A DNA stretch of 64,000 nucleotides from Candidatus Altimarinota bacterium (GTDB taxonomy: Bacteria; Patescibacteriota; Gracilibacteria; BD1-5; UBA2023): positions 37,392-101,391 of the forward strand of contig JAYUDN010000001.1 of the NCBI GenBank assembly GCA_043739785.1, given 5' to 3'. Made by a program: the position numbers and the translations under genes. Below are positions 811 to 42,645 of the stretch, piece after piece. The notes beneath the pieces were generated by a model. That model saw only the letters and a program-made list of their open reading frames with translations, was not told the DNA's origin and searched no databases. Numbering within the stretch: position 1 is the stretch's first letter; each line of letters starts with the position of its first letter.

Positions 811-1019
811 CTAGAGTAATAAAGAATTGAAAATTAATAATGAATAATAAATAAGGAAAAGTTAATAATTGAAAATTATAAATTGAGAAAGTTTATAATC
901 TTGAGTTCTTAACACTCATGGTTTTCTTCTTCGCCACTAAAAAGCAGAAAGAGGCACTCGTACCCTTCTTCAATCCTGAAGATTGAGCGATTCGCACCTA
1001 CTCTTAACCCATTCTTTTT

Positions 1020-1238
1020 ATGAAGAAATCGATACACCCTGGTTTTAAAATGGTCAAAGTGACCTGCTCATGTGGAAACACTTTCGAAACCGGAAGCTCC
1101 GTCAAAGGAGAAGAAATACGTGTAGAAACCTGCTCTATGTGTCATCCGTACTATACCGGAAAAAAGACCCTTCTCAAAACGAGTTCCGTGGACAAGTTCT
1201 ACGCTCGCCAGAAAAAGACAGATTCCATCGGAAAATAA
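1020..1238 (+). CDS. rpmE: 50S ribosomal protein L31
   Basis: 72 aa with CSC...[11 protein letters not shown], the bL31 zinc-ribbon signature. Confidence 0.9.
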
Positions 1239-1241
1239 TCG

Positions 1242-1270
1242 AAAAATCCTCCAGAAATGGGGGATTTTTT
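1242..1270 (+). terminator. Rho-independent terminator after rpmE
   Basis: aaaatcctcc / ggggggatttt hairpin followed by a T-run. Confidence 0.6.
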
Positions 1271-1323
1271 ATAACTTTAGAAATTCTATCTTACAAAAGA
1301 TTGGAGTTCCTGCTTGAGGTGTA

Positions 1324-2319
1324 CTAATCTTTATTCGCGCTCTGTGCATTCATCACCTTATAAAAGAGCTGAGAAATCGGGTTGAGAACATTTCGAAGGT
1401 TTTCTCTGAGATCCAGGTAGTCACTCTGGATAAACTGGAGTAGGAGGTGGACCGAGTAGGTTCGCTCCATTTCGACGAAGGCCGTGATAGCGACGGGATA
1501 GGTACGTTTTGCGGAAGTGACTTCGCTCGCAATGTCTCGATTCATCTGGTCGAGCTGAAAGGCGACCTGAGCGGTATCCTTGGGACTCAGTGGCGCGGTG
1601 GAACTGATCGCTCGGAAGTCATTCATCTCTTTTTGCACCTTAGAAAAGTCGAGGTTTACATTTTTCTGGAGGTATTCGAGGTAGTATCGATAGTTGCAGT
1701 ACTGGTAAGAAGCCGTATCGAGGAGGCGAAGGCGCATCGGGATCGGGTTATTATTACTATCGACGACTTCGGTATTGCCATTGCAGGTCTGAAGCAGCTT
1801 ACGTTGATTCTCGAGCTTCGTGTTGAGTCCCTTGATTTTTGTAATAATCTCTGAATTTTTGTTTCCGAAGGTTTCATTGACCTGTACTACTTTCTCCGCT
1901 ATCCGTATCCTCGAAGAGAGCATCGCACAAGCAAAAACCGAGTTCATCTGAGAATTGTAGATCCCACGAGAAAGGCTCAATATATCGAGGGAGTAGTTAC
2001 TAGTTGGTGGTTGGTAGACTGGTTTTCCAGTTTTCTGGACATACTGTTCAAGGGCGATCTTCTTTTCTTCGACGGATGCAGAACTCATCTGGGGGTAGAC
2101 GACATTTGGACTATCGATGATCGCCGTCGAGAGCATCGAACCATTCGATATATTCCATGGAGCGAGTCCTTCTGGATCTTGCTTCATGCAGTAGTAATTC
2201 ACATTTTTCTGATAACAACCATAGGTGATATTCGCTTCATCAGTACAAGGCTCCGCGGCGAAAATACTCCTCGGGAGGAGTGCTACAATTATGAGGATGA
2301 AGGGGAGGAGGTACTTCAT
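1324..2319 (-). CDS. Secreted hypothetical protein, last gene of the T4SS-like block
   Basis: 331 aa with N-terminal signal peptide MKYLLPFILIIVALLPRSIFAAEP. Its start lies 2 nt downstream of the stop of the ATPase gene. Confidence 0.6.
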   Translation of the reverse strand: MKYLLPFILIIVALLPRSIFAAEPCTDEANITYGCYQKNVNYYCMKQDPEGLAPWNISNGSMLSTAIIDSPNVVYPQMSSASVEEKKIALEQYVQKTGKPVYQPPTSNYSLDILSLSRGIYNSQMNSVFACAMLSSRIRIAEKVVQVNETFGNKNSEIITKIKGLNTKLENQRKLLQTCNGNTEVVDSNNNPIPMRLRLLDTASYQYCNYRYYLEYLQKNVNLDFSKVQKEMNDFRAISSTAPLSPKDTAQVAFQLDQMNRDIASEVTSAKRTYPVAITAFVEMERTYSVHLLLQFIQSDYLDLRENLRNVLNPISQLFYKVMNAQSANKD

Positions 2320-2320
2320 A

Positions 2321-4744
2321 CTAGACGGCTCAGATACGGTAAATAATCTCTTTTTCTACAAATTCTCGTTCCCGACCATACTTCAGTCGAGAGAGTTCCT
2401 TGAGGGCGGCACCGATGGTTGGATCTCCTTTCTCGAGCCATGGACGAGGGACCGAGAGGCTAAATCCCTGGGATGGTTGTTCGTCGATAGAGAGGCGCAT
2501 CGCCGCATTGAACTTATCCATATTGAGAAAGTCCTGTTCAGAATAGAGAGGGGCAAACTGCTTCGCCATAAACTCGGCATCTTCTGGACCGATCTTGTAG
2601 CTCATCATCGTCCCGACGTTTCCGAAGATGGCATCCTTGAGGTTTAGCTGAGACTTCGTGAGGGCGTCAGATTTCTGAAGCTGACCGAGGTACTGGTGGG
2701 CTATGACGAGACCGAGTCGATACTTTCGAGCTTCTGAAAGGATAGACTCGATACTGTCGGTGACATAGTTCTGGAACTCATCGATATAGAGGAAAAAATC
2801 CTTTCGGAGCGTCTTGTCCATATTTTGTCGACGCATGGCGGCTATCTGTATCTTCGAGACGAGGACGAGTCCGAGCAGGGTCGAATTGAGGTCTCCGATA
2901 ATACCCTTCGAAAGCGAAACGAGGAGGATTTTTTCGTTATTCATGATATCTTCGATGTCGAAGGCACTTTTCGTCTGTCCGACAATATTTCGCATCATCG
3001 TGTTCGTGATGAACTGACCAAACTTCGCGGCAAAGTAGGGGATAATCTCCGCTTTTTCACGGTCTCCCATCTTCGCATAGGTATAATCCCACCAAGAACG
3101 AACAATCGGGTTTTTGAGAGTGGTGCGTCGTTCTCGCTGGAAGTTCTCATCAGTAAAGAGTCGTATGAGGTCAGTGATGGCTCATCCTTGAGGATAGTCG
3201 AGGAGGGTAAGGCATCCATTTCGGAAGTAGTCCTGGATTCGAGGACCGAATATCTCATTTCCGAAGAGTTTGATCATGATATTGGTAGCGTCGCCGACGA
3301 CCATCTGTTTCTCATCTTCACTTTTTGCCTCGAGGAGGTTGAGTCCCATAGGACGGCTCAGGTCTCCAGGATCGAAGTAGACGAGGTCCTCAGCTCGTTC
3401 GCGAGGGATGAAGTCGACAAGTCCTTTGGCGAAGTCACCATGGGGATCCATGACCGCGATACCTCGACCAGTGCGAATGTCTTGGCGAGCCATCACCGAG
3501 AGGATAGATGACTTTCCCGTACCGGTTTGTCCGATGACGTAGAAGTGTCGAAACCGATCTTCATTTTTCATATAGATCGCCTTTCGTTCGCCACGAAAGA
3601 TATTTTCTCCGAGGTAGAGACCTTCCTTCCCGACATTGATCGGCGCCTTGAGCACTTTGAACCGTTGCCAACGAATCTCAGGTTGCTTGTTGTACTTCGA
3701 GTGCGGAAAGTGAAAGAGGGTGGCGATTTCTTCACTATTGAGAACCGGAGATCCCTGCCACCAAGCGAATTGTCGGAAGATATAGTGTCTTATAAGGAGG
3801 GAAAGGGACTTTCGTTTGACGGGCTTGAACCGATTATAGGCCGGAGAGGCAAACTGAGAAAATGACGAAATAATATTGCCAAGCTGTCCATCGACATCGA
3901 CAGGATCATTGCCCGTGGTGACAATACGGATCACCATCGTGTATCCTGTTTTTTTTACTTTTTCTTTCATAAGGCCATCATCATCGATCGGTTCGGCTTC
4001 ATTTTCTTCTGGCTTGGATCCTCCTTTTTCCTCGTCTTGTGAACCAAATATCTCGATAAAACTCATAAGCCACTCGAGTGGATTCCATGAAATATACGAG
4101 TGGTGTCATTTCTCAGATTTTTTGATCTTTTTCTTAATACGCTCTTGCCAGTCATCATCGACGGGGCGCAAAAGGATCTGGATGGCACTGGATTCATCGC
4201 TTGAGAGCTTCGACAGCGCCGAAAGAATTCCATTCATACTATCCGTTTCGAGTTTCTGATAGGTACGTATCGGGAATGCGTAGGGTTTCTTGAGCTTCAT
4301 CATCTCTCCTCTGACGACGGATCGAGATTCGAAAATATTGACCTCTTCCGTCTCTTCGACGAACGCATCTGGATAGAACCCGACAATTTGTTTTTCTACG
4401 AGGTTCCGCGAGTGCTTCGGCACGACAATATAGAAGTAGATCTCACTCCCATGAGCGACATATTCGAGCGAAATATACTCTTGCCCGAGTATCCATCCCT
4501 TGATATTTCATGCATAGAGGTACTTCAGAGAGGCAAGGAGTTGTTCCATAATCGAGATCTGTTCACGAAAGTCCTTGATCGTTTCTTTTTTCTCATCAAG
4601 ATCACTATCCTTTCTGGCCATTGTGACACGGAGAAAGACCATATTGAGGGATCGCTTCAGATTCACCTTCCGACGTAAGTAGATAAATCAGAGGGTTAGC
4701 GCTATGACGGTCGAGATGATATAAAAAAGGAGTTCCGAGAGCAT
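2321..4744 (-). CDS. VirD4/TraD-like (T4SS coupling-protein-like) P-loop ATPase, membrane anchored, 807 aa
   Basis: Track ORFs 2330..3070, 3182..4066 and 4106..4423 share one frame and join through TGA codons at 2330, 3182, 4106, 4508 and 4688. N-terminal TM segment MLSELLFYIISTVIALTLGFIYL; Walker A GQTGTGKS; DPHGD; Walker B-like LYIDEFQN. True stop is TAG 2321-2323. Confidence 0.75.
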
Positions 4745-4777
4745 TCGAGACGAAGGTAATATAGGGGAGAAGGTACT

Positions 4778-5746
4778 TTAGCCCTTGAGGATAAAGAATC
4801 GAAAAATAGCATGACTTCCGACGAGGAGGATCAGACCGAGTGCGATATAGATAATCGTTCCCTTTGCTTTTTTGAGTTTTTCCTCATCTCCGGCAGATAT
4901 GAGGACGAGCCATCCTGCGTAGATAATAAGAATCACGGAAAGAAGCGCTAGAAACCCATTGAGGTAGTTCACAAAGTTTCCAAATATTCCGAGTGAGGCT
5001 TGCACATTGGGATCCTTGATCGCACAGTCACCAATAGTGACGAGGTTAAACGGTCCTACATTTTTACAGTCGGGCTGACCATAGACGAGTCGTATGAGCG
5101 TTTCTGGGATGCGTATGAGGATGAATCAGATGATACTGTAGATGAGGGTATTTTTTCATTTTTTGAATTTCTCCTCATCTCCACCACCGGTGACCATCGT
5201 GTAAAAAGCAAGAATCGACATCGCGATAAAGCCAAAGGCCGCGAGCATCTGGAGTACCTGTACAAATGGAGAAAAGATATTTCTCCAGAGTTTTCCCCCG
5301 AGTCCAGACCCGATGACTTCCGTAACGTCTCCGAGGATAAGCGTCGTCCATACCGTGTAGGCCACCTGCATCAACAGGATCCCGAGGGATACCCAGAGGA
5401 TATTTTGCCGCCATACCTTCACCTTCTCTTCGCTCGCATCGGAAAGGAGGAGCTTCATCACTCAGACGAGGAGAAATACCAGCGCGATAAAGATAAAGAA
5501 ATTCTTCACATTGTAGGCTATCACGACGACGAGGTCAGTGATCCCCTCGCCACCACCATTTCCAGGTCTGATAAAGGAAGCCAGGAGGGGACCGACAAAT
5601 TGTTCGAGGGTATCATTTCCCTTCCCGCTGTTGTTGACGACTCATCCACGAACATTGAGGGTGGCGTCATCGAGCGCCCAGACAGAGGGCGAAAAAATAG
5701 AAAAAAGTGAAACCAAGAATAACAATACGAGGAGAAGTTTTCGCAT
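4778..5746 (-). CDS. Triple tandem T4SS-pilin-like (TrbC/VirB2-type) fusion protein with signal peptide, 322 aa
   Basis: Track ORFs 4778..5005 and 5156..5461 are in frame and join through TGAs at 5126, 5156, 5462 and 5645. Signal peptide MRKLLLVLLFLVSLFSIFSPSVWA. Three repeats of TM - (S/G)(D/G)(A/D)(S/E)EEK.K(K/V) - TM. Confidence 0.7.
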
Positions 5747-5846
5747 AGAGGGAATTTACATAGATTCATTATATCTGAAGCCGGCGCGGAACGCAAATAT
5801 ACTGCAAAAAATTGTTGAACCTCAGGAGTTTTCCCGGCTGAATTTT

Positions 5847-8465
5847 CTATTTTTTTGTTGTAGGGATATTTTTCTTCTCATCTAATGGTTTTTTCTGAGA
5901 TCAAGAAGCACCGATTTCTCGCTCTTGGGCTCGTTTTTCTTTCATTTTTTCTTTGTACTCCATCTGCTCGGTATGGTAGCTTTTTTCTTCTTCAGAAATC
6001 TTGTGGGCGAAGTCGAAGATTTTTTTCTCGACAAATTTTCGATCTTTGGTGTATTTTTCCCGACTGACCCGCAGGAGGGTTTCTTTCGATTGTTCTTCCT
6101 TCACCTCGGTACGCTCATGCAGTGGACCAAACGTCGTCGCCGAGTAAACGGGAGAAGGCATCCCGTCGATCAGGAGCTTCGTATAGATATCGTACTTTCG
6201 AAGGTTGGTCAGGTCATGTGGGGTGATAATATCCTCTCCACCATACACTTCCGAAAGGGTCACCGCATCATGGTGTCAGACCTGAAAGGAGACCAGGGTT
6301 CCCACATTTCCAAATACCGCATCCTGAACCGTCTCCGGCATCTGAGCGATGTATTGGTTCGCCATCGTCAGAGAGAGCTTATACTTCCGAGCCTCTGAGA
6401 GGATGGTCGCAAAAGAATCGGTCGCAAAGTTCTGGAACTCATCGACATAGAGCCCGAAGTCACGTCGATCCTTCTCGGGAATATCCGCTCTGGTCATCGC
6501 TTCGATCTGGAATTTCGTGACCATCATCGCTCCGAGGAGAGCACTCGCATCTTCCCCAATTCGCCCTTTTGAGAGGTTCACGATAAATATCTTCCCATTG
6601 TCCATAATCCAGCGGAGGGAAAATGGATTTTTGGGCTGACCGAGGATATTGCGAAGGAGGGGCGAAGAAAGAAACTGTCAGACTTTGTTGAGAATCGGAT
6701 TGACGGCTTCACTCATCATGCTCGGACTCATAGCTGCAAATTCTCGTTCCCAGAATTGCACAAGGATAGGATCTGGAAGCTTTGCTACTATTTTTTTCCG
6801 GTACGATTCATGGGTGAGAATAAGTGGGATCGAGATAAGGGTCGTATCAGGGATGAATAGGAGCGTGAGGATCGTATTGCGGAGGATATACTCGAGTCGT
6901 GGTCCCCAGCTTTCCGCAAACATCTTCTTGAAGATAGACACGAGTCCACTCGCGACAATCGACCGAAGTTCGGGATCTGGATTATCGAGCATATTGAATC
7001 CAATCGGAAACTCTTTGTCAGATGGATCAAAGAGGACAATGTCATTGGTCCGAGATTTTGGAATATGCGCGAGGATGGTATCCGCGAGATCTCCATGGGG
7101 ATCGATAAGACCCACACCTCGACCCGAGAGGATATCGGAGTAGATCATATTTTCGAGGAGGGTTGACTTCCCCATACCGGTTTTTCCGATGATGTAGACA
7201 TGGCGGGCACGATCTATCGGCTTGATACCGAAGGGGATATCGGCCCCTCGAAAATTGGTATGACCCAGGGGGGTATGTGGGATCGAAGCATCGGGAAGGT
7301 TGTGAGGAGGCTCGAACCGACGGGTGAGGACCCAGTTAATCCCAGGAGTTTTCACATAGAGGGTCGGCATATGGACGAGACCCGCAAGCTCTACGGTATT
7401 GAGAATATGGGTTGGTCTTGGCTTCTGAGCTCGAAGGTGTTCATAACTCATCGAGGTCACTCATGATTTCATCGAAAAAGCATTTCCACCAGAATGGGAA
7501 AATATATTCATAGCTCCGGAGAGCTCCCTGAGGAGGAGACGGTCTTTGATTTCTTCCTTCTTTTCGATAGCGATAGCGACAGAGGTAGCGTATCCATACG
7601 TATCATTCTTTTTATCGATCGGTATTTTTTTATCACTGTGGTTGTTTGACTCCAAAGATTCCTCACTTTTGACTGTCAAAAACGAAAATATCCAACCGAT
7701 AACGAGGAGGGGAAAGAGGATGACTCTCAACCACCACCAGTTTCAGAGGATCCATTTCTTCACAAAGTCGGGGAAGATATGCGATGATCGAATACTGAGC
7801 ATGAGTGATTCTCTCCAAGAGTCTTTCACGGGGACAAAACCTATCTGAAGGAATGCAACCTCCTGTTTGGGAAGTTTGGTGAGTGCAGAAGTGATGCTCG
7901 AAAGGGGATCGATGGCGTCTTTTTCACTTCGATCCTTGAGTCCTCCATAGAGTTTGATCGTCGTGTTATCGGTATGTTCGAGGCGAACTGGCTGAACGAG
8001 GAGGATACTTTTGGTATCTATCAGGGGCTCGGTTCGAGAGATTTCAATATCTGGATAGTGGGCATAGAGCTGGCTTTCGAGAAATCCTGCAAATTCCGCA
8101 GGGGTATGCATAAGGAAACGAATGCGACCATCGCGGTGTATAATCTCGAACTGAAAGAGAGGAAACGGGCTTTTTTTCCAGAACTGCCACCACGGGTGTT
8201 TTAGAGAGGCTACATGATGGAGCGTCGAAAGCATCTGGGAAGCGACAAAGACTCACTTCTCATTCATACGATCAACCGCAATCTCGAGGGTAATGGGAGT
8301 TCCATCAGGTATGGTCGAAGCACCCAGTGTATGTTGTTTGAGATCTTCCCCGAGACTTCCCCCGCCAGAAGATTCCTCATGCCTCTGATACTTTCTCTGT
8401 GCCGAAAAATGATGTGGTTTCATGGAAATAACAAAAAAAGCAATATCTTCCGATGATACTATCAT
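5847..8465 (-). CDS. Second VirD4/TraD-like P-loop ATPase, 872 aa (paralog of 2321..4744)
   Basis: Six track ORFs (5901.., 6276.., 6678.., 7461.., 7743.., 8253..) share one frame and join through TGAs. Walker A GKTGMGKS; DPHGD; LYVDEFQN. N-terminal FQFEIIHRDGRIRFLMHTP...YAHYPD domain, then TM segment WWWLRVILFPLLVIGWIFSFL. Stop is TAG 5847-5849. Confidence 0.75.
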
Positions 8466-8616
8466 ATTTTAGAAAAAAATACAACGAATCTTGGTTGTCA
8501 TTTATCCCTTCATAGATATACTAGGATTCACAAACATTGATAAGAGTGAAGACCGAGTTATTTCCTGACAAAGAAAGCCAGAGCTGAGAGCACAAGACCT
8601 CCTATAAACATCAACC

Positions 8617-9285
8617 ATGAATCCTATACAAATCCCATCAGAGTGCGATACTATTACCCTTCAGTCTGCGGTTTATATCGATACCTCACCATCAGAATCT
8701 ATCGATATCACCATTGGCGACGGGATAGCATGCTCCTATTTTTTATATAATACTGGAGGCGCTAAGAAGCGGACCTTTTCGCTCGCTTCCGGATCTCGGA
8801 TCGAACTACGAGGCATTATTATATGAACAAATGTTGAATCACAATTGTCATTTATCATAGAATGAACAAATATTAAAGCCCATATGGATATCCTTGCTTT
8901 TGCCAAAAACGATGCAAAACTCGTGGTAAAAGGAAATGCCACTGTCCTCCCAGGATCTCGAGAGGTCGATGTCCGTGTAGATCAGACGAATATCCTAGTC
9001 GGGACGAATGCACAGGTTCGTGGTTTGCCCATCCTCGAAGTGGCTACTGATGACGTCATCGGGGGGCATAGCTGTAAGATGCATCGAATTTCATGAGAAG
9101 GACTTTTCTACCTCGAATCGCACGGGATCGATACGAAGCATGCGGAGATTATGCTCATACAGAGTGAAATCTGGAAACGACTCCAGATTCTCCAAGGCAC
9201 GGAAGAGGCAGCCCAGTTCTGTGCCGAGATTTTTGATCAGCTTCGAGAGGGAAGTAGTATTATGACACCAGTTTGAGGAGTATAG
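8617..9285 (+). CDS. Short SufB/SufD-family (FeS assembly) protein, 222 aa
   Basis: 8617..8826 and 8884..9096 join through TGAs. ILEVATDDV.GGHSCKMHRISGEGLFYLESHGID...AE.ML resembles the SufBD C-terminal motif. Confidence 0.55.
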
Positions 9286-15195: not shown

Positions 15196-18100
15196 CTATT
15201 TCCCTATGGTGATCGATTTCCCTGCAGTGCGACCGAATACCTCTGGGTGGTAGAATTCTCCGATACGAGAAGGTCGAAGTTCGTAGGTTCAGACATGTGT
15301 GGGTCGGTAAATATACGTGAAGGTATAAATACCCGCATCGAGCCGTGCGACGGTACCGAAGTATCGATCATCCTGCCACTCCTCATGGTCGAAGAGAGGA
15401 TTCATCGTTTTACGAGAAGTGGGTGCACCATCAGAATACATACCATCGCTTGATGGAGTTGTATTTGCGGTCGAAGTATTCACTACATCTTGAGACTCCG
15501 TCTTGAGATTCGGATTCACGAGCTCAGCCCCAGCTGGGATAAATCCTTCAAACGCGACCTGATCACGAGGCTCTGCAGCGATCATACGGTTATACACGAT
15601 GACGAGTTTTCCAACCTTCGGGGAGGTGAGAGGAGTGAGGTAGGTGGTGATATCTTTCGGATATTTGAGTTCAGTAAAGAGGATATCTCCTTTGAGGTAT
15701 TGAGCCCATTCTGTAGCCTTAGCCTTCTCTATAGCCTGATACTCAGCATAGTCATAGGAGGTTGATTCGAGAAAGAATCCTTCATCTCGGGCAGGAATCC
15801 CGCTCGCCTTCAGCGCATAGGTCATGGAAATATCGTAGTAAATCCGACCCGTTCCTGTTTTCTGGAATTGGAACTGTGAGACATCCTGGAGATTCGAAAG
15901 TAAGAATCCAGTGGAGAAGGTTTCGAGTCGATTCGAACCATCGATAGTCTTTTTCTCGAGCAGGTTTCCGTCGAGAGAAAGTGTAGATTCAAGCTTCGTA
16001 TTCCGAATATCCCCAGTTGCTCGTTCCATCGTAGTTATCGATCGGATGACGTCCATCGTATCGAGGGTAGACCCAAAACTTCCGTCTTTTTTCTTCTGAC
16101 TCATAACCCACCGACTCATCTGGTCGAGTACGGTTCGATTTTCGGAGAGGGTATCACCACCCAAGAGGGTCACGAGCTCGACAAAGCTCAGGGTATTGGT
16201 CAGTCGAGAAGAACTATCAGATCGTCCGATAAAGGATCCTCGAGGATTGATAACAACTCCTTCGCTGCTGATTTTTTTGACCGTATCTTTTGCTTGATTG
16301 AGAAGCGATTTTTTATCCTTCTCAGCCACCGCATTGAGTGTGGTCAGCTTCACCAGGAGGTGGGCATGGGCGAGCGAGAAATCGACCCCCCGATCATAGA
16401 CCTCCTGAGTGTTCGTGAGGTACCATCCATTTGCCATATTTTTGGTATCGCTTACAAGGAGTTGGTACATCTTGTAGGCTTCATAGTCATCTGGTGTGGC
16501 ATCGAGGACTCAGGCAATCATCTCGAGCCGCTCAGGGACTGAGTAACCACAGTTGGTGATACAATACGGTCGATTATTCTCATAAAATGTATCCTTGATA
16601 TACTTCGCAGCCTTTGGTAAAACATCTGGTGGAAGCGTGAATCCAACTCGTTTGAGGTCCTGGAGCCGAGATACGACCGTAAGGGTGAGAGGGAGGGATG
16701 ATATTTCAGAGTCTGTCCAGTAACCGAATCCCCCGTCATATCGCTGGTAGGAAGTCACTCCTCCTATCACTTCTTGTATCACATCTTTGAGAGAAACCTC
16801 GGTGTATCAGTCTTCTTTTGAGTTATAGCGCTTCAGCATCTTCGTCGAGAGATCATAGGGGATCCCGATGCTGTCGTAGAGCTCCTTCATATAGACCTGT
16901 GGCATAATAGCGGCGAGTTTCTGCTCGATGCAACCATACGGATAGCTTGCAAGAAAATCCATCCCTGAGAGGAGTCCAGGAAGGAGGGTTCCAGCATAAG
17001 AAATAGCGAGGGATCATCCATTCTCACGGATGGCACGCTCGAGCTCTATGAGTTCAGCTGCTTTGGGGTCGGCTCGACCACTCGTCGCAACCGTTTCACT
17101 GGTTGTTGTCTCGATAATCGGGATTGTCATTTCTATAGTATCTTGATCGCCGGTCGTACGAGAAACGGCTTTGATCGTGATCTTCGAGGCCCAAGTCGAG
17201 AGATTTCGCACTTTTTCGATGGAGTCAACTACGAGTTCAAATGGCACCACGACTTGAGCTCAGGCCTTGATTTCGACTGATTTTTTTGGGCTCTGAATTG
17301 TGACATGGTTAGCCTCGACCGTGATATCAAAGGTGGCATCTTTTTCTGTCTTATTGAATACAACCGGAGCTATTACTACAGTGTCTGCGGTCCCGAGGAA
17401 TCTCGGAAGGTTATCATTGATAAGGACACTTTTCGAAGTCTGGATCTGAGTAGTACCAACACCGAACTGATTCTTTTTGGTATTGATCAAGGCTTCGATC
17501 ACCCACGTCGTGAGGTTATCTGGAAGGACGGGCGTCGTGATAGTGAAATTTCCACTCTGATCCGTCGTGAAGTCCGATTGCCAGAACGCTGTATCCTTGA
17601 ATACTCAACGTTTCTTTTTCGAGAGTCCTCATTTTTGTCCATCACCGGCTCCTCATTTTTCTCCGAGTGATGTATCCTTTACTTCGAGTTTTTCGACGAG
17701 GTTGAGGAGAGAAGTATAGGTGATGACTCCGAGGTACCGCTTCATGTCGTAGAAGTAGGCAAATGGATTCTTGAGTGGATTCCCAGCGAGCGCGAGGAGG
17801 CTCTCATCGACGATCGAGAGACTTCCATTGGCTCATGCGAGTACTTTCCCTGCCGCATCTTTCACATTCACGGTAATCTTCACGGGTTCTCCAGGAAGAT
17901 ATTTTGACTTCGAAGCACTTACGGTTACAGCGAGTTTTTTCGGATCCGGGAGTACTTTGACGACGGCGAGTGCCCGCTTGTAGATCGGGAGTTTTTCTCA
18001 TGGATTCTGCCCAAGAGCAAAGACTTTGACATAGACATTTGGGATATAGGTATCGAGTATCGGGAACTCGATGCGTACGGTCGTGCCGGTGATATCCTGG

Positions 18101-21100
18101 ATATAGGAGTTCAGGATTCCATCATCTTTTTCGATACTGACGAGCATTTTCCCCGACTGAATTGGAGTTTTGAGAGTAAACCCAGCTCGATCTCCGACGG
18201 AGAGGAGAGTGGCATCAGCGGTGAGATCAGCGATCGCATTGTTTCACTCATACCAATACGTCTCATCATTTCCAGAGACATAGATGTACGTACTCGAAGT
18301 GAAGCCGACATGATTTGATCCGGTGTAGGTGGCTTGTATCTCATACTCTCCCCCGGTAGCTGAGAGAAAGGTAGAGCTAAACTCCCCCCGAGCGTCCGAG
18401 GTAGCAGTATCGGTCGATATCACTGTTTCCTCGAGTGCTCATTCGTTGTAGAAGACCCCGTCGACCCCTTCCTTCTTCACATTTTTCCATTCCCGTTTTA
18501 TGAGCGTGAGTCATACAGTTTTTCCAGCGAGTCACTTCGCAGCAGGGTCGAGGACGACTCCACTGAGTTTCACGCCTTTTTTCCCACTGCTCCAGTACGG
18601 AGCCATAATCCCTACGTATCCATCGGTGGCGTGGACGATCTGACTCACGGAGGTATTGACCGTTTTCTTGGTGTCTGGATCGGTCACTTCGAGCGAGTAG
18701 GTATAGATACGCTCACCGGTCGTCGATCCTACATCGTACTCGTGGTGGATGATCGTATTTCCGAGCATATCGAGCGTTCCGGTTCCACTCGATTCCATCA
18801 CATCTTGGTAGTTGCACGAACCCCAATAGAGACAATCCGAATAGGCAGAGCCCTGAGAAAAGGTATAGTTGCTATAGCCCTGAGGATTGAAGTAATAATT
18901 CTGTGATAAAAGCGAATACTGATATTCCGCTCCACCGAGGGCACCACCGAAGTAGTATTCCGCGTGTCCTGGGATATCGACACTATCCCCCACAAAGACA
19001 TCAGACTTTGGCACCTCACTCGATACTTTGAAGACTGGTTTTTTGTAGGCATCGATGAAGAATTCCCCATTATTATAGACAGTGTAGGAGTTCCCATATT
19101 CATCAGGAATATCGAGTTCGAAGGTATATCGTCCGAGTGGGGCGGTCTTTGGGAGGATGAACTCGCCATGGAAGTTCGAATTGGCATCGATGGTGATATC
19201 CATATCGGCAATAGTTACCGGTCCCGATTCACTTCACTCTGCTCAGAGGATCTTGATCTTTCACTTTCGAACTGCTGATGGAGCGAATCCGTCAAAGTGA
19301 AAATTACGGAGGATCCCCTTGAAGTACACCGTGTCAGCGGGCTTATAGAGCGGTCGATCCGGATATATATAGAGGTAGTCACGGTCTGAGGCATCCTGAC
19401 CAGAAATATACTTGAAGTCATAGTTTGAGGTCTGATCTTGGTTTATGTTTAGGACTCCATAATAGGTAGCGTTTTTCGCGACGATAATATCGAGGAGCGC
19501 ACCCGTACTAGTTATTTTGTACACCCTTTTGCCGCTATCGTAGACTATCGGAGGCTTGGCCATGGTGTCATAACTATTTTTTTCAGAACTCCAGCGATAG
19601 GCCGTGAAGGTAAGATCTGATGGTATCGTCTTCCCATCATAACTCGACGCGAAGATGATGCGACTATTATTCCCATCCTCGAGCGTGAGGGAGAGATTCG
19701 ATCGGATAAACGTGTGGTAAAATGACTGTTGAATTTGTGGGTCGGCCCCATCGAGGTATCCATGGATATAGACATAGGGCTCGGTAAATGTTTCTCAGAG
19801 GACTTCTTTCTCGAGGTCTACCTGCGTCGGAGTCACGGTCCAGTATCGATTTTTGAGGGGTATTTTCTTGGATACCTCTTTGATACAACGTGGATTTGGC
19901 GGAGAATTATAAGAATTTGGTAGGTTTTTTTGTCTGAGAAGGTCAATATATCCCGCTTCATCCATCTCACAGACATCGATATTGGTCATATCGGTATTGA
20001 CCGAGAGGAGGCCGAGCACGATCGGTAGTGAAGAAGGGATAACCTCTGTTTGATGTCACTCGGCACTACCGTAGAGGTATCGATCATTCGGTGCAGTCGG
20101 TCCGGTCTTCACGGTAAATGAACCCTTTTTCGAAAGCTCTTGACCGTACTCGTCAGTCAGTGATGGGAGAAAATCTATCCGATAGGAGAGTGATGGATTC
20201 AGCCTTAGATCGACGATATACGCATTTTTTCCGCCTATCTGAGGACAGGTGTAGGTTTTGGTATAGTTTTGTCCAGCGGCATTCCATATGTCGTCACCTC
20301 GGTCATAACGAAGCGTCGGTGCTTTCGAGGCAGGAAGCGTCACTATACTTGACCCCGATCAAAGTCTGGTATCAGGCGTATAGCTATAGTCATAGTATTC
20401 GTCGCGGCCGAGGATCTTATTGTTCGTATAGACACATCCGAGTGTATTCGAGAGAAGGCTCAATCCAGAAACGACCAAAGCGGATGCCGTTCGGAATCCG
20501 TAGGTCTCATCTTGAATGAGGGCGGAATTTGCCTTTTTGGATATGATCACTTCGTAGGCTGTATCCTGTTTGAGCGGGTACTTCGGAGTGATCTTGAGTT
20601 GTTGTTTATTGTCCTCTTCTCAGGTAATATTCCCTTTCGCATCGTACGTACTCATCTTCGCATAGGCTATACTCGACTCGATCGGAGTATGATCTTTCTC
20701 CGTTCGCACCGTGAGAAGCGTGGGGTCAAGTGGGACGACTTGGTCGAAGGAAACGAGGAAAAAGAGCTGCTCACTCGGGAGGAGTCATGCAATCATATCG
20801 TAGCTTCTGGTATCAGTGAGCATCCCCGAACTATCTTTGATATTCTGATAGGCTCCAACAGTTGCATACGCTGAGGTATGCATTGATTTTTGCACCTCTT
20901 GACCGAGGGATTCGGTTCCATATTTGGGATGTAGAGTGGTATGAACGACGAGCGAATAGTCGGTACTATATATAAAAGGGTGGTCTTTCGGTGTGATCGT
21001 AAAATGGGTCTCGCTCGAGCTTCCATCTTCGTTTTTTACTGGAGTAACCATGATCCCTATACGACTGATGGTTCCACTAGCTCCACTATTCCCACCTGAT

Positions 21101-21969
21101 AATTCAATAGCTCCGGACAAGCTCTCAGCGGTTACTGGGAAATTGGTCGAGAGAGGTATCCCTGTATATGGAGAAAATGTATCCGGGATTCGAACCTGAA
21201 GTGCGGTCGTCATGATCTCACTCGTTAGTACCTGAGTCAGTCCATGAAGGAGGCCTGAAATATCTGCCACTTGCATCTGGTATCGTGTGGCTCACTGGAG
21301 CGGTGTCGTCGGGATGAATTCGAGGATACTCGTGTTGGTCCAGACACATCTTCCTTCGATATGAGGAGTGATGGTGAGCGGACAAGGAAGCGTATCTCGC
21401 TTATCGAGATTGGTGAGCGGTACCATCGGCGTATTGAAAACGACGGTGATATTTTGACTCAAGGTATCAAGTGATCCAGTCGGGAATATTTTCACGGCTT
21501 GAGCTCCTGGCGTTGCCACGAATGTCACGGTTTTATCCTTTCCGAGAGGAGTACCATCTGATTTCTGTACGGTCGAAGCGACGGTGAGATCGTAGGTTTC
21601 GCCCGTTTCGAGGGATTTCGAGAGCGTGTATGATATCGTCTTCGCATCAGCACCGACACTAACTTTCCCATCGACGTGAGGGGAAAGGGTGACGGTCTCG
21701 GGAGTGATCGATCCGGGAGTGACGCCCGAGTCGAGGGTCAGCGTCAGGACCTTCGTATTATACGGGATCTTCCCAGTATCCTCAGAAATCTCCTGACTCG
21801 CTCATGTCGGACCTTCCTTCCCTATGCCTCCGAGCGAGGGAAGTGATGGGGCATACATCCACCCTACGACTCCGACCATCCCGAGGAGAACGAGGAGTGA
21901 AATGATTTTCCAGTGGGCTCAGATACTTTCTAGAAATGATTTTTTCGGAGAGGGGGTTGCTTCTGTCAT
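15196..21969 (-). CDS. Alpha-2-macroglobulin family protein, membrane anchored, 2257 aa
   Basis: At least 11 track ORFs (15289.. to 21292..) all share one frame and join through TGAs. N-terminal TM segment WKIISLLVLLGMVGVVGW. Thioester-type motif YPYGCIEQ (CIEQ codons at 16921..16932). FKDTAFW and YQRYDGGFGYW. The C-terminus reads through TGA 15289 to TAG 15196. Confidence 0.8.
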
Positions 21970-30574: not shown

Positions 30575-32908
30575 CTACCGATATTGGGAAGCAAGTTCTT
30601 CAAGGGCTTCTAGTTTTAGAAGAACATATGTTTTTTTATTCATTGTCGCTCGTTTCGTGTTTTCTTGTAGCCAAGCTTTTGAGCTATTTTTTAAAGTGGT
30701 TCTTTTGAGAACTTCGTATTTAAGTGGAGCATATTTTGACTCGATTAAGGCTCGGTATTCTTCACCAATAGCCTGGTAAGGTATCCCGGATATTGTTATA
30801 ATACCATTTTCGTTTATTTCCTCATCGATTAGAGAAACTTTTGTATTGATTTCAGCAAGTAACTCTCCAATCTTGCTTACACGTATGGCTCTTCATTTTA
30901 TTCCAGTTTGGGTGTTAAAAAATGGAATACTAAGTTTATCTTTCAGACCCGCTCTCATTGAATGATTCAGATATTGATTATTCTTTCCGTACGTATTTTC
31001 AATATAGTGAATATACCTATTGTCTAATACGTAATACCGTTCTCCTTTAAACGCAAATAATCCGTTTTCATCGATTGCATCAGCATGTACTAAAGACTTT
31101 ACACTCATTTTATCTATTAGAACACTTATAGAGCAAAACTGATACCTTTCTCATTCTTGGGACTGTCATACTTTTAGGTGGTCTTGAGATGCCTTTAGGT
31201 GGTTTTGTAGTCTTTGGAGTCACTCCAACTCAATACTAGCATATCATCTTCAGAGAAGTTCTATCAGTTCTCTGTCGAAGTCCGGATGAATTGCCTGAAA
31301 AGGTACTCATCATATAGTGCCAACACCATTTTTATTTATTTCTACAGATACAATATCTTCCATTACCTCATAACCAGAGAGTGTAAGATTATTAAGCATA
31401 ACCTCTCCTAGCTCATGCATCATCTCAAATGCATTCATTATACCACCTACTCGCTTACTACCATCTCAAGATACTTTAGTATTCGTAGAACCACTATTGG
31501 GGCTGGTTCATCTACTCTGTGCATCTGGTGGAGGAGTCAGTACATCCCATGACCGAGGAGCCATATAGAGTGTATTACTTGTATTTTTTGGAGGATATTT
31601 TTTTAGGTCTTGGGCACTCAAGGAACGCATAATTCGTCACATCAGCTGTATACTCTTGGCCGGAGACATAATCGCACATCACTGCAAATAACATCGAAGG
31701 GTCCTGACATCCCATCACTCTGCGACTTGTTGTACCGTTATAACCAGATCAATACTTCTATCCTGTATTCCTTTTTTTGCTTCGCGTGCGTCCATACCTT
31801 TTTTATACTTTCCATTTCCACTTGTCACGCGTACGGCTTTTACTCACTTTGATAGAGCAAGCTGAGTCACACTCTCAGCGTGTTCTATACTTCTACAAGC
31901 GTATATGCCAAGAAGATAATTATCTTGAGCCTTTTTCTCCTCAACGTACTCATCTATAAGCACTTCATCGAAAACCTTACCATCTTCATCAAAGTATCGA
32001 TATTTTTCATAGTCTTTTGTCGTGTCGTCATCATTGGGGCGGGTAGCATACGCATGACCGAGCAGCCGAGCCGTCGGAAGTATCAGAGTTCCATCATTGA
32101 CCGCGTCTTGAATTTTTCCCATATAAAATGGACGGGCGTATTCGAGTACATTTTTATTGGTAAGTCCAGGAGTAGCCGTAAAGTAAAGGTGAAGTTTTTT
32201 CTTGGCAATTTCTGAGATAATGGCTTCAGCTTTATCAATCTCAGATCCATCTTCAGACTCGGTGTCTTCCTCGGAAAGTGAAGTAAAGTGAGATTGAGTT
32301 TTTTCTCATAAACTCTTATGTCACTCATCAGATATGATACAATTTACCTGAGCAAAGATACTTTTAAGTACACCAAAATGAGACTTCGCAAGCTGATTGA
32401 ATCCATGGTAGGTAAGTATGATTACACCATTTGTATTCGATTGCATAAAATGGGGTATTCACTGAATCTGTTCTCATAGACTCCCATCACTTTCAGATGA
32501 TAGGCAAAATACCTCTCATTCGCTATACCCGACACCTGACTTCTCTTCGTTTCCTACGAGTTCATCTCGAGTATTACTTATAAGAGGAATATTGGGAACG
32601 AGAATGACATTGTTTCATCCGAGGGCTCTAAGTATTTTTCAGAAGAGATAGGTTTTTCCTACTCAGATGGCCAACTTCGCCAGTCCTGTACGATATCAAG
32701 ATTGTACTCAATCTATGATTCCACCAAGAGCATCATTTTGCTGTCCACGAAAAGAAATATCCTCATCACTCAGTTTCTGTAACTTCGCCACTTCTGATGG
32801 TATATCAGGCTGGGAAAGAATATCTGTAACTTTTCCACTATTGTCATTTGTGGGTAATCATAGGGCGGGGGGTGCATCAGGGCTGACCGATGGTTCTTCA
32901 GTATGCAT
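30575..32908 (-). CDS. SF2 (DEAD/DEAH-box, type III restriction res-like) helicase, 777 aa
   Basis: Motif I LAI(G)VGKTY, motif II IISDE(G)H, motif III TATPG, motif VI QLM(G)RIMR. More than 30 in-frame TGAs, so only 2 fragments (30893.., 31844..) appear in the standard-code track. Confidence 0.7.
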
Positions 32909-33156
32909 GGAAATAATTAAGTTACCTATATATAATAATATTATTATAACATATATATGTAAATATACAAATACTTCTAGTCACATCTAATTTCTACTTC
33001 TGCAGTTAGTCTACATTTTTGAAGTATCAAAAGGTTCTGTACTCATCTAAAGCCGGAGAATAATATCTTGTGACAAGCACAGAATAGGAGTCTATTAACT
33101 CTAAACAACATGAGTAAAATCAGTTTTCCTTGCCTTCAGTGATGAGTGTACATTAT

Positions 33157-42557: not shown

Positions 42558-42645
42558 AGATAAAAAAATTACTCTTTCAGGATACCATATATCTCCAGGG
42601 AATGCAAAAAATTGACTTTCCGAATCTGCGCAATACACTTTTTCC

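What the first reader, a model, noticed from the sequence alone, without database searches (positions are those of the whole stretch)
4778..5746. Three T4SS-type pilin domains fused in one polypeptide
VirB2/TrbC-type pilins are normally single domains of about 100 aa (TM, short charged loop, TM). Here one signal-peptide-bearing ORF contains three such units with loops SDASEEKVKV, GGGDEEKFKK and SAGDEEKLKK. It sits between two coupling-protein-like ATPase genes. It could be a polyprotein processed into three pilins or a novel multi-pass filament subunit.
Basis: partly seen in the sequence, partly recalled or inferred. Interest (0 to 1): 0.65.

Follow-up and report, generated by a model that had tools for sequence, protein, structure and literature searches.

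The report
Three pilin-like hairpins fused in one protein
A Gracilibacteria (candidate phyla radiation) genome encodes one exported membrane protein made of three different copies of the small two-helix unit that other bacteria use as a conjugation-type pilin; the fusion is conserved and always sits next to a secretion-type ATPase, and I found no description of it in the literature.

Summary
The 969-nt frame (4778-5746, minus strand) is open only if TGA is read as a sense codon. The whole window is TGA-recoded, and in 49 orthologues TGA aligns with Gly, which indicates genetic code 25.

The 322-aa product has a Sec signal peptide and three helical hairpins. Pfam T4SS_pilin (PF18895) matches three stretches, and the three units are demonstrably homologous to each other.

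This is not an assembly accident. More than 100 protein clusters and about 48 species-level Gracilibacteria genomes keep the same u1-u2-u3 order in one ORF. Each unit is orthologous across genomes, which points to an old fusion.

In 44 of 48 loci the gene directly abuts a VirD4/TraD-like ATPase; in the window it has one on each side. Other Patescibacteria carry the published arrays of separate single-unit pilin genes. Fused proteins of 2 to 8 units also exist and are annotated only as hypothetical.

Direct sequence homology to Agrobacterium-type VirB2 was not detected. No virB4 lies in the window.

I could not determine whether the protein is cleaved or works as a single chain. I favour an uncleaved protein that supplies three hairpins in a fixed 1:1:1 ratio. 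I rate it a new variant of a known kind, of moderate to high interest.

The parts
4778..5746 (-). Gene for the 322-aa triple pilin-like protein (code 25). TGA=Gly codons at 5642-5644, 5462-5464, 5156-5158 and 5126-5128; stop TAA at 4778-4780.
   Evidence: Pfam PF18895 matches three stretches. A version identical except for Trp at the four TGA positions (TGA read under code 4) is in the protein database as P0001.
5675..5746 (-). Sec-type signal peptide, residues 1-24 (MRK, hydrophobic core, VWA|LDD).
   Evidence: Hydropathy peak at residues 4-22. The family consensus ends in A-F-A. The cleavage site is read from the sequence and not predicted by a dedicated tool.
5564..5674 (-). N-terminal extracytoplasmic segment, residues 25-61, with the conserved NVR and F..P...FF motifs.
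   Evidence: Conservation profile of 101 homologues. Low pLDDT in the model.
5321..5563 (-). Unit 1, residues 62-142: helix 67-101, loop SDASEEKVKV, helix 106-136. This is the most divergent unit.
   Evidence: AF2 helices. PF18895 scores 17.9 bits when the unit is scanned alone, below the cutoff. Homology to u2 and u3 by hhalign at 97% probability.
5075..5320 (-). Unit 2, residues 143-224: helix 147-186, loop GGGDEEKFKK, helix 191-222. The u1-u2 linker is only about 10 residues.
   Evidence: PF18895 scores 38.6 bits alone. AF2. The linker has no gaps across 101 homologues but low sequence conservation.
5015..5074 (-). Linker 2, residues 225-244, with the conserved Cys227 and Cys241 pair (probable extracytoplasmic disulfide loop).
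   Evidence: Both Cys are at least 90% conserved in 98 sequences. Several single-unit relatives also carry a Cys pair just before their first helix.
4781..5014 (-). Unit 3, residues 245-322: helix 248-283, loop SAGDEEKLKK, helix 288-318. It is the best conserved unit, and the protein ends right after helix 2, as single-unit pilins do.
   Evidence: PF18895 26.9 bits and TrbC/VirB2 PF04956 20.8 bits (below its cutoff) when scanned alone. Conservation.
2321..4744 (-). Downstream ATPase g3, 807 aa, VirD4/TraD-like: N-terminal TM helix, Walker A GQTGTGKS, Walker B FLYIDE. It starts 33 nt after the pilin gene stop.
   Evidence: Pfam DUF87, T4SS-DNA_transf and TrwB_AAD_bind above their cutoffs. All NCBIfam matches are far below cutoff. 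Motifs. Its orthologue is adjacent to the pilin gene in 44 of 48 loci.
5847..8465 (-). Upstream ATPase g5, 872 aa, a paralogue of g3 (31% identity over about 770 aa).
   Evidence: (DUF8128, DUF87, TrwB_AAD_bind, TraG-D_C). An ATPase lies on both sides in 7 of 48 loci.
1324..2319 (-). Third gene of the conserved module, g2: 331 aa, signal peptide, Cys-rich N-terminal part, predicted long helices, no family match.
   Evidence: A g2-like ORF follows the ATPase in 19 loci. No Pfam, NCBIfam or PHROG family. The AF2 model is unusable at pLDDT 41.9.

Best explanation
Shown by the evidence:
- This is one real, conserved gene of a TGA=Gly (code 25) Gracilibacteria genome.
- Its product has a cleavable-looking Sec signal peptide followed by three non-identical two-helix hairpins of the Patescibacterial 'T4SS_pilin' family.
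- Each hairpin has a short K/E-rich loop, and both its ends are predicted to lie outside the cell.
- The fusion is old. Each unit is orthologous across genomes, while the units are only 18-27% identical to one another.
- The gene is tightly linked to one or two VirD4/TraD-like ATPase genes and, in the window's clade, to a secreted 315-330-aa protein.

Inferred:
- This is the Gracilibacteria counterpart of the arrays of separate, divergent VirB2-like pilin genes found in other Patescibacteria.
- After removal of the N-terminal signal peptide the protein most likely stays in one piece.
- It inserts as a six-helix membrane protein with the three KK-rich loops in the cytoplasm.
- It then supplies three different hairpins in a fixed 1:1:1 ratio and fixed order to a pilus- or conduit-like envelope structure.
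- Assembly or use of that structure depends on the neighbouring membrane-anchored ATPase(s).
- The nearest analogy is the proteolipid hairpins of rotary ATPase rings, which occur either as single or as covalently fused subunits.
For: Gene reality and genetic code.

Three pilin-family units: PF18895 with three stretches at 58.8 bits; per-unit scores of 17.9, 38.6 and 26.9 bits; NF045849 with three stretches; hhalign unit-to-unit E 1e-10 to 1e-17.

Topology and structure: a signal peptide plus six hydrophobic helices. K/R density is 12 in 45 loop residues against 8 in 115 residues of the other segments, which fits the positive-inside rule. AF2 gives pLDDT 78.5 and pTM 0.60, with six helices of 31-40 residues forming three hairpins.

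Conservation: 147 database clusters, most about 320 aa and full length. u1-u2-u3 lies in one ORF in 48 genome loci. For all 147 units the nearest neighbour is the same unit class; the same unit is 47-56% identical across proteins and different units 18-27%.

Linkage: an ATPase is directly adjacent on the same strand in 44 of 48 loci. The surrounding genes are core chromosomal ones such as L31, SufBD, Era, fmt and EF-P.

Link to arrays: standard-code Patescibacteria loci hold 3-15 tandem single-unit genes, each with its own signal peptide. Published work describes arrays of 2-11 genes averaging 25% identity, essential in Southlakia (PMC12102498, PMC10633639, PMC12857230).

For a single chain: linker 1 is about 10 residues, constant in length and poorly conserved in sequence, so no conserved cleavage motif is visible. 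Linker 2 keeps a conserved Cys pair, also seen at the mature N-terminus of single-unit relatives. No protease gene belongs to the conserved module. Fused forms with 2-8 units and short linkers recur in other lineages.
Against: - No experiment or proteomic datum bears on processing. Conjugative pilins are commonly processed in known systems, so cleavage cannot be excluded.
- No pilus has been seen in any Patescibacterium.
- Sequence homology to bona fide VirB2/TrbC is below threshold (PF04956 20.8 bits against a cutoff of 27.9). It is absent in hhalign against a small 7-sequence VirB2 profile (probability below 1%).
- The PDB profile search and Foldseek found no pilin.
- No virB4 or other mating-pair genes lie in the 64-kb window. 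A coupling-protein-type ATPase is not the known partner of VirB2 pilins.
- AF2 inter-unit packing could not be inspected, because only summary values are returned.
Confidence: 0.45

Rival explanations
1. It is a polyprotein. The chain is inserted by Sec/YidC and then cut in both linkers, by signal peptidase I or another envelope protease, into three separate pilins that assemble as free subunits. These would be equivalent to the products of a three-gene pilin array.
For: Each second helix is preceded by a KK-rich segment and runs from inside to outside, as a signal peptide does. Known conjugative pilins are proteolytically matured (my own knowledge of TraA, TrbC and VirB2). Linker 2 plus unit 3 resembles a complete mature single-unit pilin, including the Cys pair. 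A PrsW-family membrane protease sits next to a single-unit pilin gene in another Gracilibacteria genome.
Against: No conserved small-x-small cleavage motif follows either second helix. In the window protein the junctions read TLILGD and LIRLVYG. Linker 1 is only about 10 residues and variable in sequence. No protease gene is part of the conserved module. If the products act separately, there is little reason for a fusion to be kept in fixed order across about 48 species.
Confidence: 0.2
2. It is not a filament subunit. It is a resident six-helix membrane component, a channel or platform, that partners the VirD4-like ATPase(s). It may replace the VirB6-type polytopic protein that has not been found in Gracilibacteria.
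For: The gene is strictly adjacent to T4CP-like ATPases rather than to virB3 or virB4. VirB6 homologues are reported absent in Gracilibacteria, and most Patescibacterial T4CP genes lie away from virB4 (PMC12102498). The product has six hydrophobic helices and a compact predicted fold with pTM 0.60.
Against: There is no profile similarity to the VirB6/TrbL or PrgH families. The units belong to the same family as the small secreted single-hairpin proteins. The helices are 31-40 residues long, longer than a bilayer needs. Unit numbers of 2 to 8 in relatives fit a repetitive polymer better than a fixed channel.
Confidence: 0.25
3. The family serves an envelope function unrelated to type IV secretion, for example one tied to type IV pili or to cell-surface maintenance. 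On this view 'T4SS pilin' is a misleading family name.
For: Homology to VirB2/TrbC is sub-threshold. In another Gracilibacteria genome a single-unit member lies inside a type IV pilus gene cluster with PilC and N-methyl pseudopilins. No relaxase or virB4 lies nearby.
Against: NCBIfam ties the family to a Mycoplasma ICE conjugation protein. A single-unit Gracilibacteria member reaches 27.5 bits on TrbC/VirB2 against a cutoff of 27.9. In Southlakia the single-unit genes lie inside the essential T4SS cluster. The neighbours here are T4SS-type ATPases.
Confidence: 0.1
4. It is an artefact: three or more small genes, or a pseudogene, separated by real TGA stops.
For: Under table 11 the frame is broken into fragments of 75-101 aa.
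Against: TGA is sense across the whole window and aligns with Gly. The four TGAs lie inside units and not between them. The fragments would lack start codons, signal peptides or a first helix. Full-length orthologues occur in about 48 genomes.
Confidence: 0.01

Closest known systems
Arrays of VirB2-like pilin genes of Patescibacteria (PF18895): Southlakia epibionticum SEML1 T4SS cluster, Nanosynbacter TM7x 'Sec-secreted array'. Sources: PMC10633639, PMC12102498, PMC12857230.
   Same: Same Pfam family. Same unit plan: an outside segment, often with a Cys pair, then helix, GDEEK-type loop and helix, with the protein ending right after helix 2. Divergence between units is about 25%, the same as between array members. 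The locus is chromosomal and has no relaxase.
   Different: Here three units are covalently joined in one ORF with a single signal peptide and a fixed order, conserved across Gracilibacteria. The published arrays are separate genes, each with its own signal peptide. Here the neighbours are VirD4-like ATPases, not virB4, virB3 or trsD.
Conjugative pilins VirB2/TrbC/TraA of diderm T4SS (Pfam PF04956)
   Same: A hairpin of two hydrophobic helices of about 70-85 residues with a short charged loop. Sec-dependent export with the N-terminal leader removed. A weak profile match of unit 3 (E 4.7e-4).
   Different: Those are single-unit proteins of about 100-120 aa encoded beside virB3 and virB4, whereas this one has three units. 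The match to PF04956 is below the gathering score, and profile-profile comparison with Agrobacterium-type VirB2 was negative. The host is a monoderm.
Mbov_0395 family pilin-like conjugal transfer protein of Mycoplasma ICEs (NCBIfam NF045849)
   Same: The best NCBIfam match (47.3 bits, three stretches). Also from wall-less or monoderm bacteria with a recoded TGA.
   Different: That family's profile is only 80 positions long, about one unit, and its members are encoded on a mobile element. Here the score passes the cutoff only as the sum of three units, and the locus lies among core chromosomal genes rather than on an ICE.
Fused proteolipid (c/K) subunits of V- and A-type ATPases, i.e. duplicated or triplicated hairpins in one chain. 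This is an analogy from my own knowledge and was not tested here.
   Same: A two-helix membrane hairpin that normally oligomerises as a single unit is found as a covalent tandem of 2, 3 or more hairpins. This fixes stoichiometry and allows the copies to diverge.
   Different: The protein family and the machine are unrelated. This is an analogy of principle only.

Membership tests
Pfam PF18895 T4SS_pilin (Patescibacterial VirB2-like pilins) | Profile match at or above the gathering score (26.6 bits) | tested here: met
   The whole protein scores 58.8 bits over three stretches. Scanned alone, u2 scores 38.6 and u3 26.9, both above the cutoff; u1 scores 17.9, below it. u1 is tied to u2 and u3 by hhalign at 97% probability.
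Pfam PF18895 T4SS_pilin (Patescibacterial VirB2-like pilins) | Two long hydrophobic helices joined by a short charged loop, with the protein ending just after helix 2 | tested here: met
   Hydropathy and the AF2 helices show this three times over. The C-terminus lies 4 residues after helix 6.
Pfam PF18895 T4SS_pilin (Patescibacterial VirB2-like pilins) | Small single-unit protein (about 105-200 aa) with its own Sec signal peptide, usually in a tandem gene array | tested here: not met
   The protein is 322 aa with three units and one signal peptide. The array form is seen in other Patescibacteria loci, L052-L078.
Pfam PF18895 T4SS_pilin (Patescibacterial VirB2-like pilins) | Encoded near virB4 and other T4SS genes (true of 1135 of 1948 assemblies in PMC12102498) | tested here: not met
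   None of the proteins of 399 aa or more that were scanned in the window is VirB4-like. The neighbours are VirD4-like ATPases. Only 4.7 kb lies to one side of the gene in the window, but flanks of up to 10 kb each side in L001 and L002 show no virB4 either.
TrbC/VirB2 conjugative pilins (Pfam PF04956) | Profile match at or above the gathering score (27.9 bits) | tested here: not met
   The best match is unit 3 at 20.8 bits, E 4.7e-4. The whole protein gives 16 bits. hhalign of the unit profiles against a 7-sequence VirB2 alignment gives probability below 1%.
TrbC/VirB2 conjugative pilins (Pfam PF04956) | Structural match to solved conjugative pilins (TraA, VirB2, TrbC) | tested here: inconclusive
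   Foldseek of the full model against the PDB found no hit with E below 0.6 and no pilin among the top 50. The PDB sequence-profile search found 0 hits. Short helical hairpins carry little signal in such searches.
TrbC/VirB2 conjugative pilins (Pfam PF04956) | Polymerises into an extracellular pilus; matured by leader cleavage, with or without cyclisation | not testable with these tools
   This needs biochemistry or cryo-EM.
NCBIfam NF045849 Mbov_0395 pilin-like conjugal transfer protein | Score above the curated cutoff (40 bits) and location in an ICE | tested here: inconclusive
   47.3 bits, but summed over three stretches. The locus is flanked by core chromosomal genes rather than ICE genes, and there is no match in the plasmid or phage collections.
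Type IV coupling proteins (VirD4/TraD/TrwB), for the two flanking ATPases | P-loop NTPase with Walker A and B motifs, a membrane anchor, and matches to the T4SS-DNA_transf and TrwB_AAD_bind profiles | tested here: met
   g3: PF02534 at 34.2 bits (cutoff 20.1) and PF10412 at 24.3 bits (cutoff 20.5). g5: PF10412 at 26.2 bits and PF12696 at 29 bits. Walker motifs and TM helices.
Type IV coupling proteins (VirD4/TraD/TrwB), for the two flanking ATPases | Membership of a curated T4CP equivalog or subfamily, with an associated relaxase and virB4 | tested here: not met
   All NCBIfam matches (CedD, TraD, CD1115) are far below their cutoffs, for example 38 bits against 600. Only a P-loop match was found in the PDB. 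No relaxase or virB4 was found in the window.

The most novel reading that the evidence does not exclude
The protein is a naturally concatenated conjugation-type pilin. After signal-peptide removal, a single chain carrying three diverged VirB2-like hairpins polymerises as a pseudo-heterotrimeric building block of a pilus or conduit, driven by VirD4-like rather than VirB4-like ATPases. By the gene-fusion ('Rosetta stone') argument, this would mean that the divergent pilin paralogues in Patescibacterial gene arrays co-assemble into one heteropolymeric structure. They would not then be alternative, host-range or antigenic variants, as has been proposed. The 2- to 8-unit relatives would form a wider class of 'poly-pilins'.
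Probability: 0.3. Interest if true: 0.8.

Novelty: new variant of a known kind. Interest (0 to 1): 0.55.

Why it matters
Patescibacterial T4SS-like systems are essential for the epibiotic lifestyle in the one organism tested. They are unusual among monoderm systems in encoding VirB2-like pilins, often as arrays of divergent genes whose purpose is unknown (PMC10633639, PMC12857230, PMC12102498).

A fusion of three such units, in fixed order and conserved across a whole class, is genetic evidence that different pilin paralogues act together in fixed stoichiometry. That turns 'variants or co-assembling subunits?' into a testable question.

The finding also identifies a compact, conserved three-gene module: the triple pilin, a VirD4-like ATPase and a secreted protein. 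This module is separate from virB4 and gives a possible role to the many 'orphan' T4CP genes reported in these genomes.

More practically, these genes are fragmented under table 11 and mistranslated (Trp for Gly) under table 4, and the full-length forms are annotated only as hypothetical proteins or by the Pfam name.

Tried and rejected
- Table-11 reading: rejected, because all the in-frame stops are TGA and the genome is recoded.
- TGA=Trp (code 4, as used for the database copy P0001): rejected in favour of Gly.
- PDB sequence-profile search with the family alignment: 0 hits at E up to 10.
- Foldseek of the AF2 model against the PDB: only generic helical proteins, nothing below E 0.6.
- hhalign of the unit profiles against a VirB2 alignment: no significant similarity. 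The alignment held six sequences fetched from plasmid records plus the Ti-plasmid VirB2 sequence I recalled from memory, which matched database copies at 99%. That VirB2 profile was narrow (alphaproteobacteria only), so the negative result is weak.
- PHROGs scan of the pilin and of g2: no hits.
- tblastn against the plasmid and phage collections: no match.
- Promoter and terminator scan of 1000-9000: counts at the level of shuffled sequence, so uninformative.
- tRNA scan for a UGA-reading tRNA-Gly: none in the window.
- Identity of the downstream protein g2: only 4 word-indexed homologues, and the AF2 model on that shallow alignment was unusable at pLDDT 41.9, so no fold search was run.
The model was therefore built on P0001, which carries Trp at the four TGA positions.
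- Search for conserved signal-peptidase-type motifs at the two unit junctions, by eye on the conservation profile: none found. This is not decisive.
- Literature searches for fused, tandem or multi-domain conjugative pilins found nothing.
Full report
1. THE OBSERVATION

On the minus strand, 5746 to 4778 is a 323-codon frame running from ATG to TAA. With the standard bacterial table it is interrupted four times, and the ORF listing reports only fragments of 75-101 aa.

All four interruptions are TGA, at residues 35, 95, 197 and 207. None lies between repeat units.

The window as a whole uses TGA as a sense codon:
- ORFs of at least 100 codons sum to 71 kb under table 11 and 199 kb when TGA is read through.
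- The longest ORF grows from 537 to 2266 codons.

In an alignment of 49 orthologous genes taken as DNA, the columns that contain TGA are 43% Gly against a 7% background. Trp is not among the eight commonest residues. The code is therefore 25 (UGA = Gly), the code of Gracilibacteria and Absconditabacteria. Database relatives are indeed named Candidatus Gracilibacteria.

Read this way, the gene encodes 322 aa.

2. ANATOMY

The N-terminus is MRK, then a hydrophobic core, then VWA|LDD. This is a typical Sec signal peptide with small residues at -3 and -1 (read from the sequence; hydropathy).

Six further hydrophobic segments follow. AlphaFold2 on a 98-sequence alignment gives mean pLDDT 78.5 and pTM 0.60. 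It predicts six helices of 31-40 residues arranged as three hairpins: 67-101/106-136, 147-186/191-222 and 248-283/288-318. Confidence is low only in the N-terminal segment and the two linkers.

The three intra-hairpin loops are rich in Lys and Arg: 12 K/R in 45 residues, against 8 in 115 residues for the other non-helical segments. By the positive-inside rule, the loops are cytoplasmic and the N-terminal segment, both linkers and the C-terminus are outside. That is the topology of membrane-stored VirB2-type pilins, three times over.

Family matches:
- Pfam T4SS_pilin (PF18895) matches three stretches (58.8 bits, E 5.6e-16, cutoff 26.6).
- Scanned separately, the units score 17.9, 38.6 and 26.9 bits.
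- NCBIfam NF045849, the Mycoplasma ICE 'Mbov_0395 pilin-like conjugal transfer protein', also matches three stretches.
- Profile-profile comparison of the units, each built from 101 homologues, gives 96.9-98.9% probability with E 1.4e-10, 9e-11 and 1.2e-17.

The repeat is real, and unit 1 is simply the most diverged copy.

3. CONSERVATION AND AGE OF THE FUSION

The word-indexed protein search returned 147 clusters. Most are 315-340 aa, cover the full length at 40-57% identity, and all carry PF18895.

A scan of one genome per species found about 48 loci with a full-length orthologue, all in TGA-recoded genomes. In every one, u1, u2 and u3 lie in that order in a single ORF.

Unit-by-unit comparison:
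- The same unit in different proteins is 47-56% identical.
- Different units are 18-27% identical, whether taken from the same protein or from different ones.
- For all 147 units, the nearest neighbour is a unit of the same class.

The fusion therefore predates the radiation of these lineages. The copies have not been homogenised, and each has its own invariant residues: K81, W112 and Q127 in u1; P160, F173, P214 and Y222 in u2; Y276 and the AGWL stretch in u3.

Linker 1 has constant length but little sequence conservation. Linker 2 has a conserved Y-G-x-P-x-C...C pattern, with both Cys at least 90% conserved.

4. CONTEXT

In the window the order on the minus strand is:
- g5, ATPase, 872 aa
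- then 100 nt of spacer
- the triple pilin
- then 33 nt of spacer
- g3, ATPase, 807 aa
- g2, a signal-peptide protein of 331 aa, immediately after

.

Both ATPases have Walker A and B motifs and a TM helix, and they are paralogues at 31% identity over about 770 aa. They match DUF87, T4SS-DNA_transf, TrwB_AAD_bind and TraG-D_C, and precomputed annotation adds DUF8128. In NCBIfam their best matches, all far below cutoff, are CedD, TraD and VirD4-like families. 'Coupling-protein-like' is a fair description, but they belong to no curated T4CP family.

In 44 of 48 orthologous loci such an ATPase is directly adjacent on the same strand: both sides in 7, upstream only in 21, downstream only in 16. 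Two of the four exceptions are genes at contig ends.

Two arrangements exist:
- The window's clade has pilin, then an ATPase of about 810 aa, then a g2-like protein. A g2-like ORF is present in 19 loci.
- The other clade has an ATPase of about 920-990 aa, then the pilin. In 10 of those loci a second three-unit paralogue of about 300 aa follows, and in 6 a single-unit gene of about 130-160 aa follows that.

The surrounding genes are ordinary chromosomal ones: L31, SufBD, Era, fmt, HIT, EF-P and sortase. No VirB4-like protein is among the large proteins of the window. No plasmid or phage record holds a similar gene.

5. RELATIVES ELSEWHERE

An exhaustive phmmer search with unit 3 alone found 5180 representative clusters (E up to 1e-3). 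Among the 144 best, my unit profiles count the following:
- one unit: 6 clusters
- two units: 21
- three units: 89
- four units: 15
- five units: 5
- six units: 4
- seven units: 3
- eight units: 1

This ranking favours multi-unit proteins, so the figures are not frequencies.

Examples are P0122 (501 aa, six units), P0123 (583 aa, seven units, two of them identical over about 75 residues, implying recent internal duplication) and P0127 (820 aa, eight units). Their named cluster members are 'hypothetical' or 'uncharacterized' proteins of Andersenbacteria and Peregrinibacteria.

Standard-code Patescibacteria loci (Magasanikbacteria, Kerfeldbacteria, Paceibacteria and others) show the published pattern instead. 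They have 3-15 tandem genes, mostly of about 105-200 aa, each with its own signal peptide, an outside segment that often contains a Cys pair, and one hairpin. Occasional two-unit ORFs occur.

6. WHAT IS KNOWN

- Quinonero-Coronel et al. 2025 (PMC12102498) searched 3,035 Patescibacteria genomes with PF18895 and PF04956. They report VirB2-like pilins in 1,948 assemblies and 441 arrays of 2-11 pilin genes averaging 25% identity. They suggest the variants may help adaptation to different hosts.
- The same paper notes that VirB6 is not detectable in Gracilibacteria, and that of 5,713 T4CP homologues only 148 lie near virB4.
- Wang et al. 2023 (PMC10633639) found the pilin series within the Southlakia T4SS cluster to be essential. 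A 2025 review highlights this as the first possible pilus of a monoderm T4SS (PMC12857230).
- None of these papers, nor six full-text searches, mentions pilin units fused in one polypeptide.

7. MECHANISM

Shown: a Sec-targeted protein of three diverged pilin-family hairpins, ancient and conserved, genetically coupled to VirD4-like ATPases.

Inferred: it is the fused equivalent of a three-gene pilin array. Linker 2 plus unit 3 looks like a complete mature single-unit pilin, Cys pair included. The signal peptides of units 2 and 3 must have been lost, because the preceding helix already exports the linker.

I favour the view that the chain is not cut after signal-peptide removal, for four reasons:
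- Linker 1 is only about 10 residues and shows no conserved motif.
- The junctions lack small-x-small sites.
- No protease belongs to the module.
- Fusions with other unit numbers and short linkers recur independently.

A fixed order kept over such divergence implies that the three hairpins act together in 1:1:1 stoichiometry. That would be either as a pseudo-heterotrimeric protomer of a pilus-like tube or as part of a membrane conduit, with the adjacent ATPase(s) as the energising or docking partner. The principle matches the fused proteolipid hairpins of some rotary ATPases (an analogy from my own knowledge).

Confidence is about 0.45 for the whole statement. It is much higher, above 0.9, for the parts that are shown.

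Rivals:
- Proteolytic processing into three pilins (0.2).
- A resident channel or platform protein that substitutes for VirB6 (0.25).
- A function unrelated to T4SS (0.1). In one other Gracilibacteria genome a single-unit member lies within a type IV pilus cluster next to a PrsW protease.
- An artefact of stop codons (0.01).

8. MEMBERSHIP

The protein is a member of PF18895 by score and by unit architecture. It departs from the family's usual single-unit, array and virB4-linked pattern.

It cannot be filed under TrbC/VirB2 proper. The PF04956 match is below threshold, the profile comparison with a small VirB2 alignment was negative, and the PDB sequence and fold searches found no pilin. A single-unit Gracilibacteria relative does come within 0.4 bits of the PF04956 cutoff, so remote homology remains plausible.

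9. VERDICT

The finding is a new variant of a known kind: a conserved, covalently triplicated pilin-family protein, one instance of a wider, undescribed set of 2- to 8-unit forms, linked to T4CP-like ATPases. Interest is 0.55.

Noticed in passing
window 1-64000: The whole window is TGA-recoded (UGA=Gly, code 25). Most genes carry 1-8 in-frame TGA codons, so table-11 gene calls fragment nearly every gene. The database copy of the pilin (P0001) had been translated with Trp at these positions.
   Followed up: yes
window 45050-45865 (+): A second pilin-family gene: 271 aa, with a signal peptide, a Cys-containing outside domain of about 190 aa, and one C-terminal hairpin (PF18895 25.7 bits, just under the cutoff). 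A PilT-like ATPase (T2SSE) lies nearby at 41502-42659 (-).
   Followed up: partly
L033, L034, L038-L040, L042-L044, L047, L048 (e.g. L039 8976-9872 and 9832-10320): In one Gracilibacteria clade the triple pilin is followed by a second three-unit paralogue of about 300 aa (all ten loci). A single-unit gene of about 130-160 aa then follows in six of them (L033, L038, L039, L043, L044, L047). The ATPase lies upstream rather than downstream.
   Followed up: partly
P0122, P0123, P0127, P0129, P0137, P0142; L056 646-1596: Pilin-family proteins with 4-8 tandem units occur in other candidate phyla (Andersenbacteria, Peregrinibacteria). P0123 contains two identical consecutive units, which indicates recent internal duplication. 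All are annotated only as hypothetical.
   Followed up: partly
L055 5743-10912 (similar gene sizes and order in L051): In another Gracilibacteria genome a single-unit pilin-family gene (142 aa; TrbC/VirB2 27.5 bits) sits between a PrsW-family intramembrane protease and type IV pilus genes (PilC/T2SSF, an N-methyl pseudopilin). This hints at a link with type IV pili or with a membrane protease.
   Followed up: partly
L050 7815-13079; L056 1653-6209; L079 6630-8246; P0199: Very large proteins (1754, 1518, 538 and 603 aa) carry one to three pilin-type hairpins next to long non-membrane regions. These may be surface domains anchored by, or displayed on, a pilin unit.
   Followed up: no
window 1324-2319 (-): A conserved secreted 331-aa protein follows the ATPase. 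It has no family match, evolves fast (only 4 word-indexed homologues), and has invariant Cys, Tyr and Asn positions. It could be a tip, adhesin or assembly factor of the module.
   Followed up: partly
window 15196-21969 (-): A 2257-aa alpha-2-macroglobulin-like protein (MG2, A2M, bait region, TED and bMG10 domains) with 25 TGA codons.
   Followed up: partly
window 58246-61494 (+) and 30575-32986 (-): A type ISP restriction-modification enzyme of 1082 aa, and a ResIII-type helicase ORF with an unusually high TGA count (26 in 803 codons). Several other long read-through ORFs with many TGAs (42651-43802, 48482-49261) have odd composition and may be spurious.
   Followed up: no
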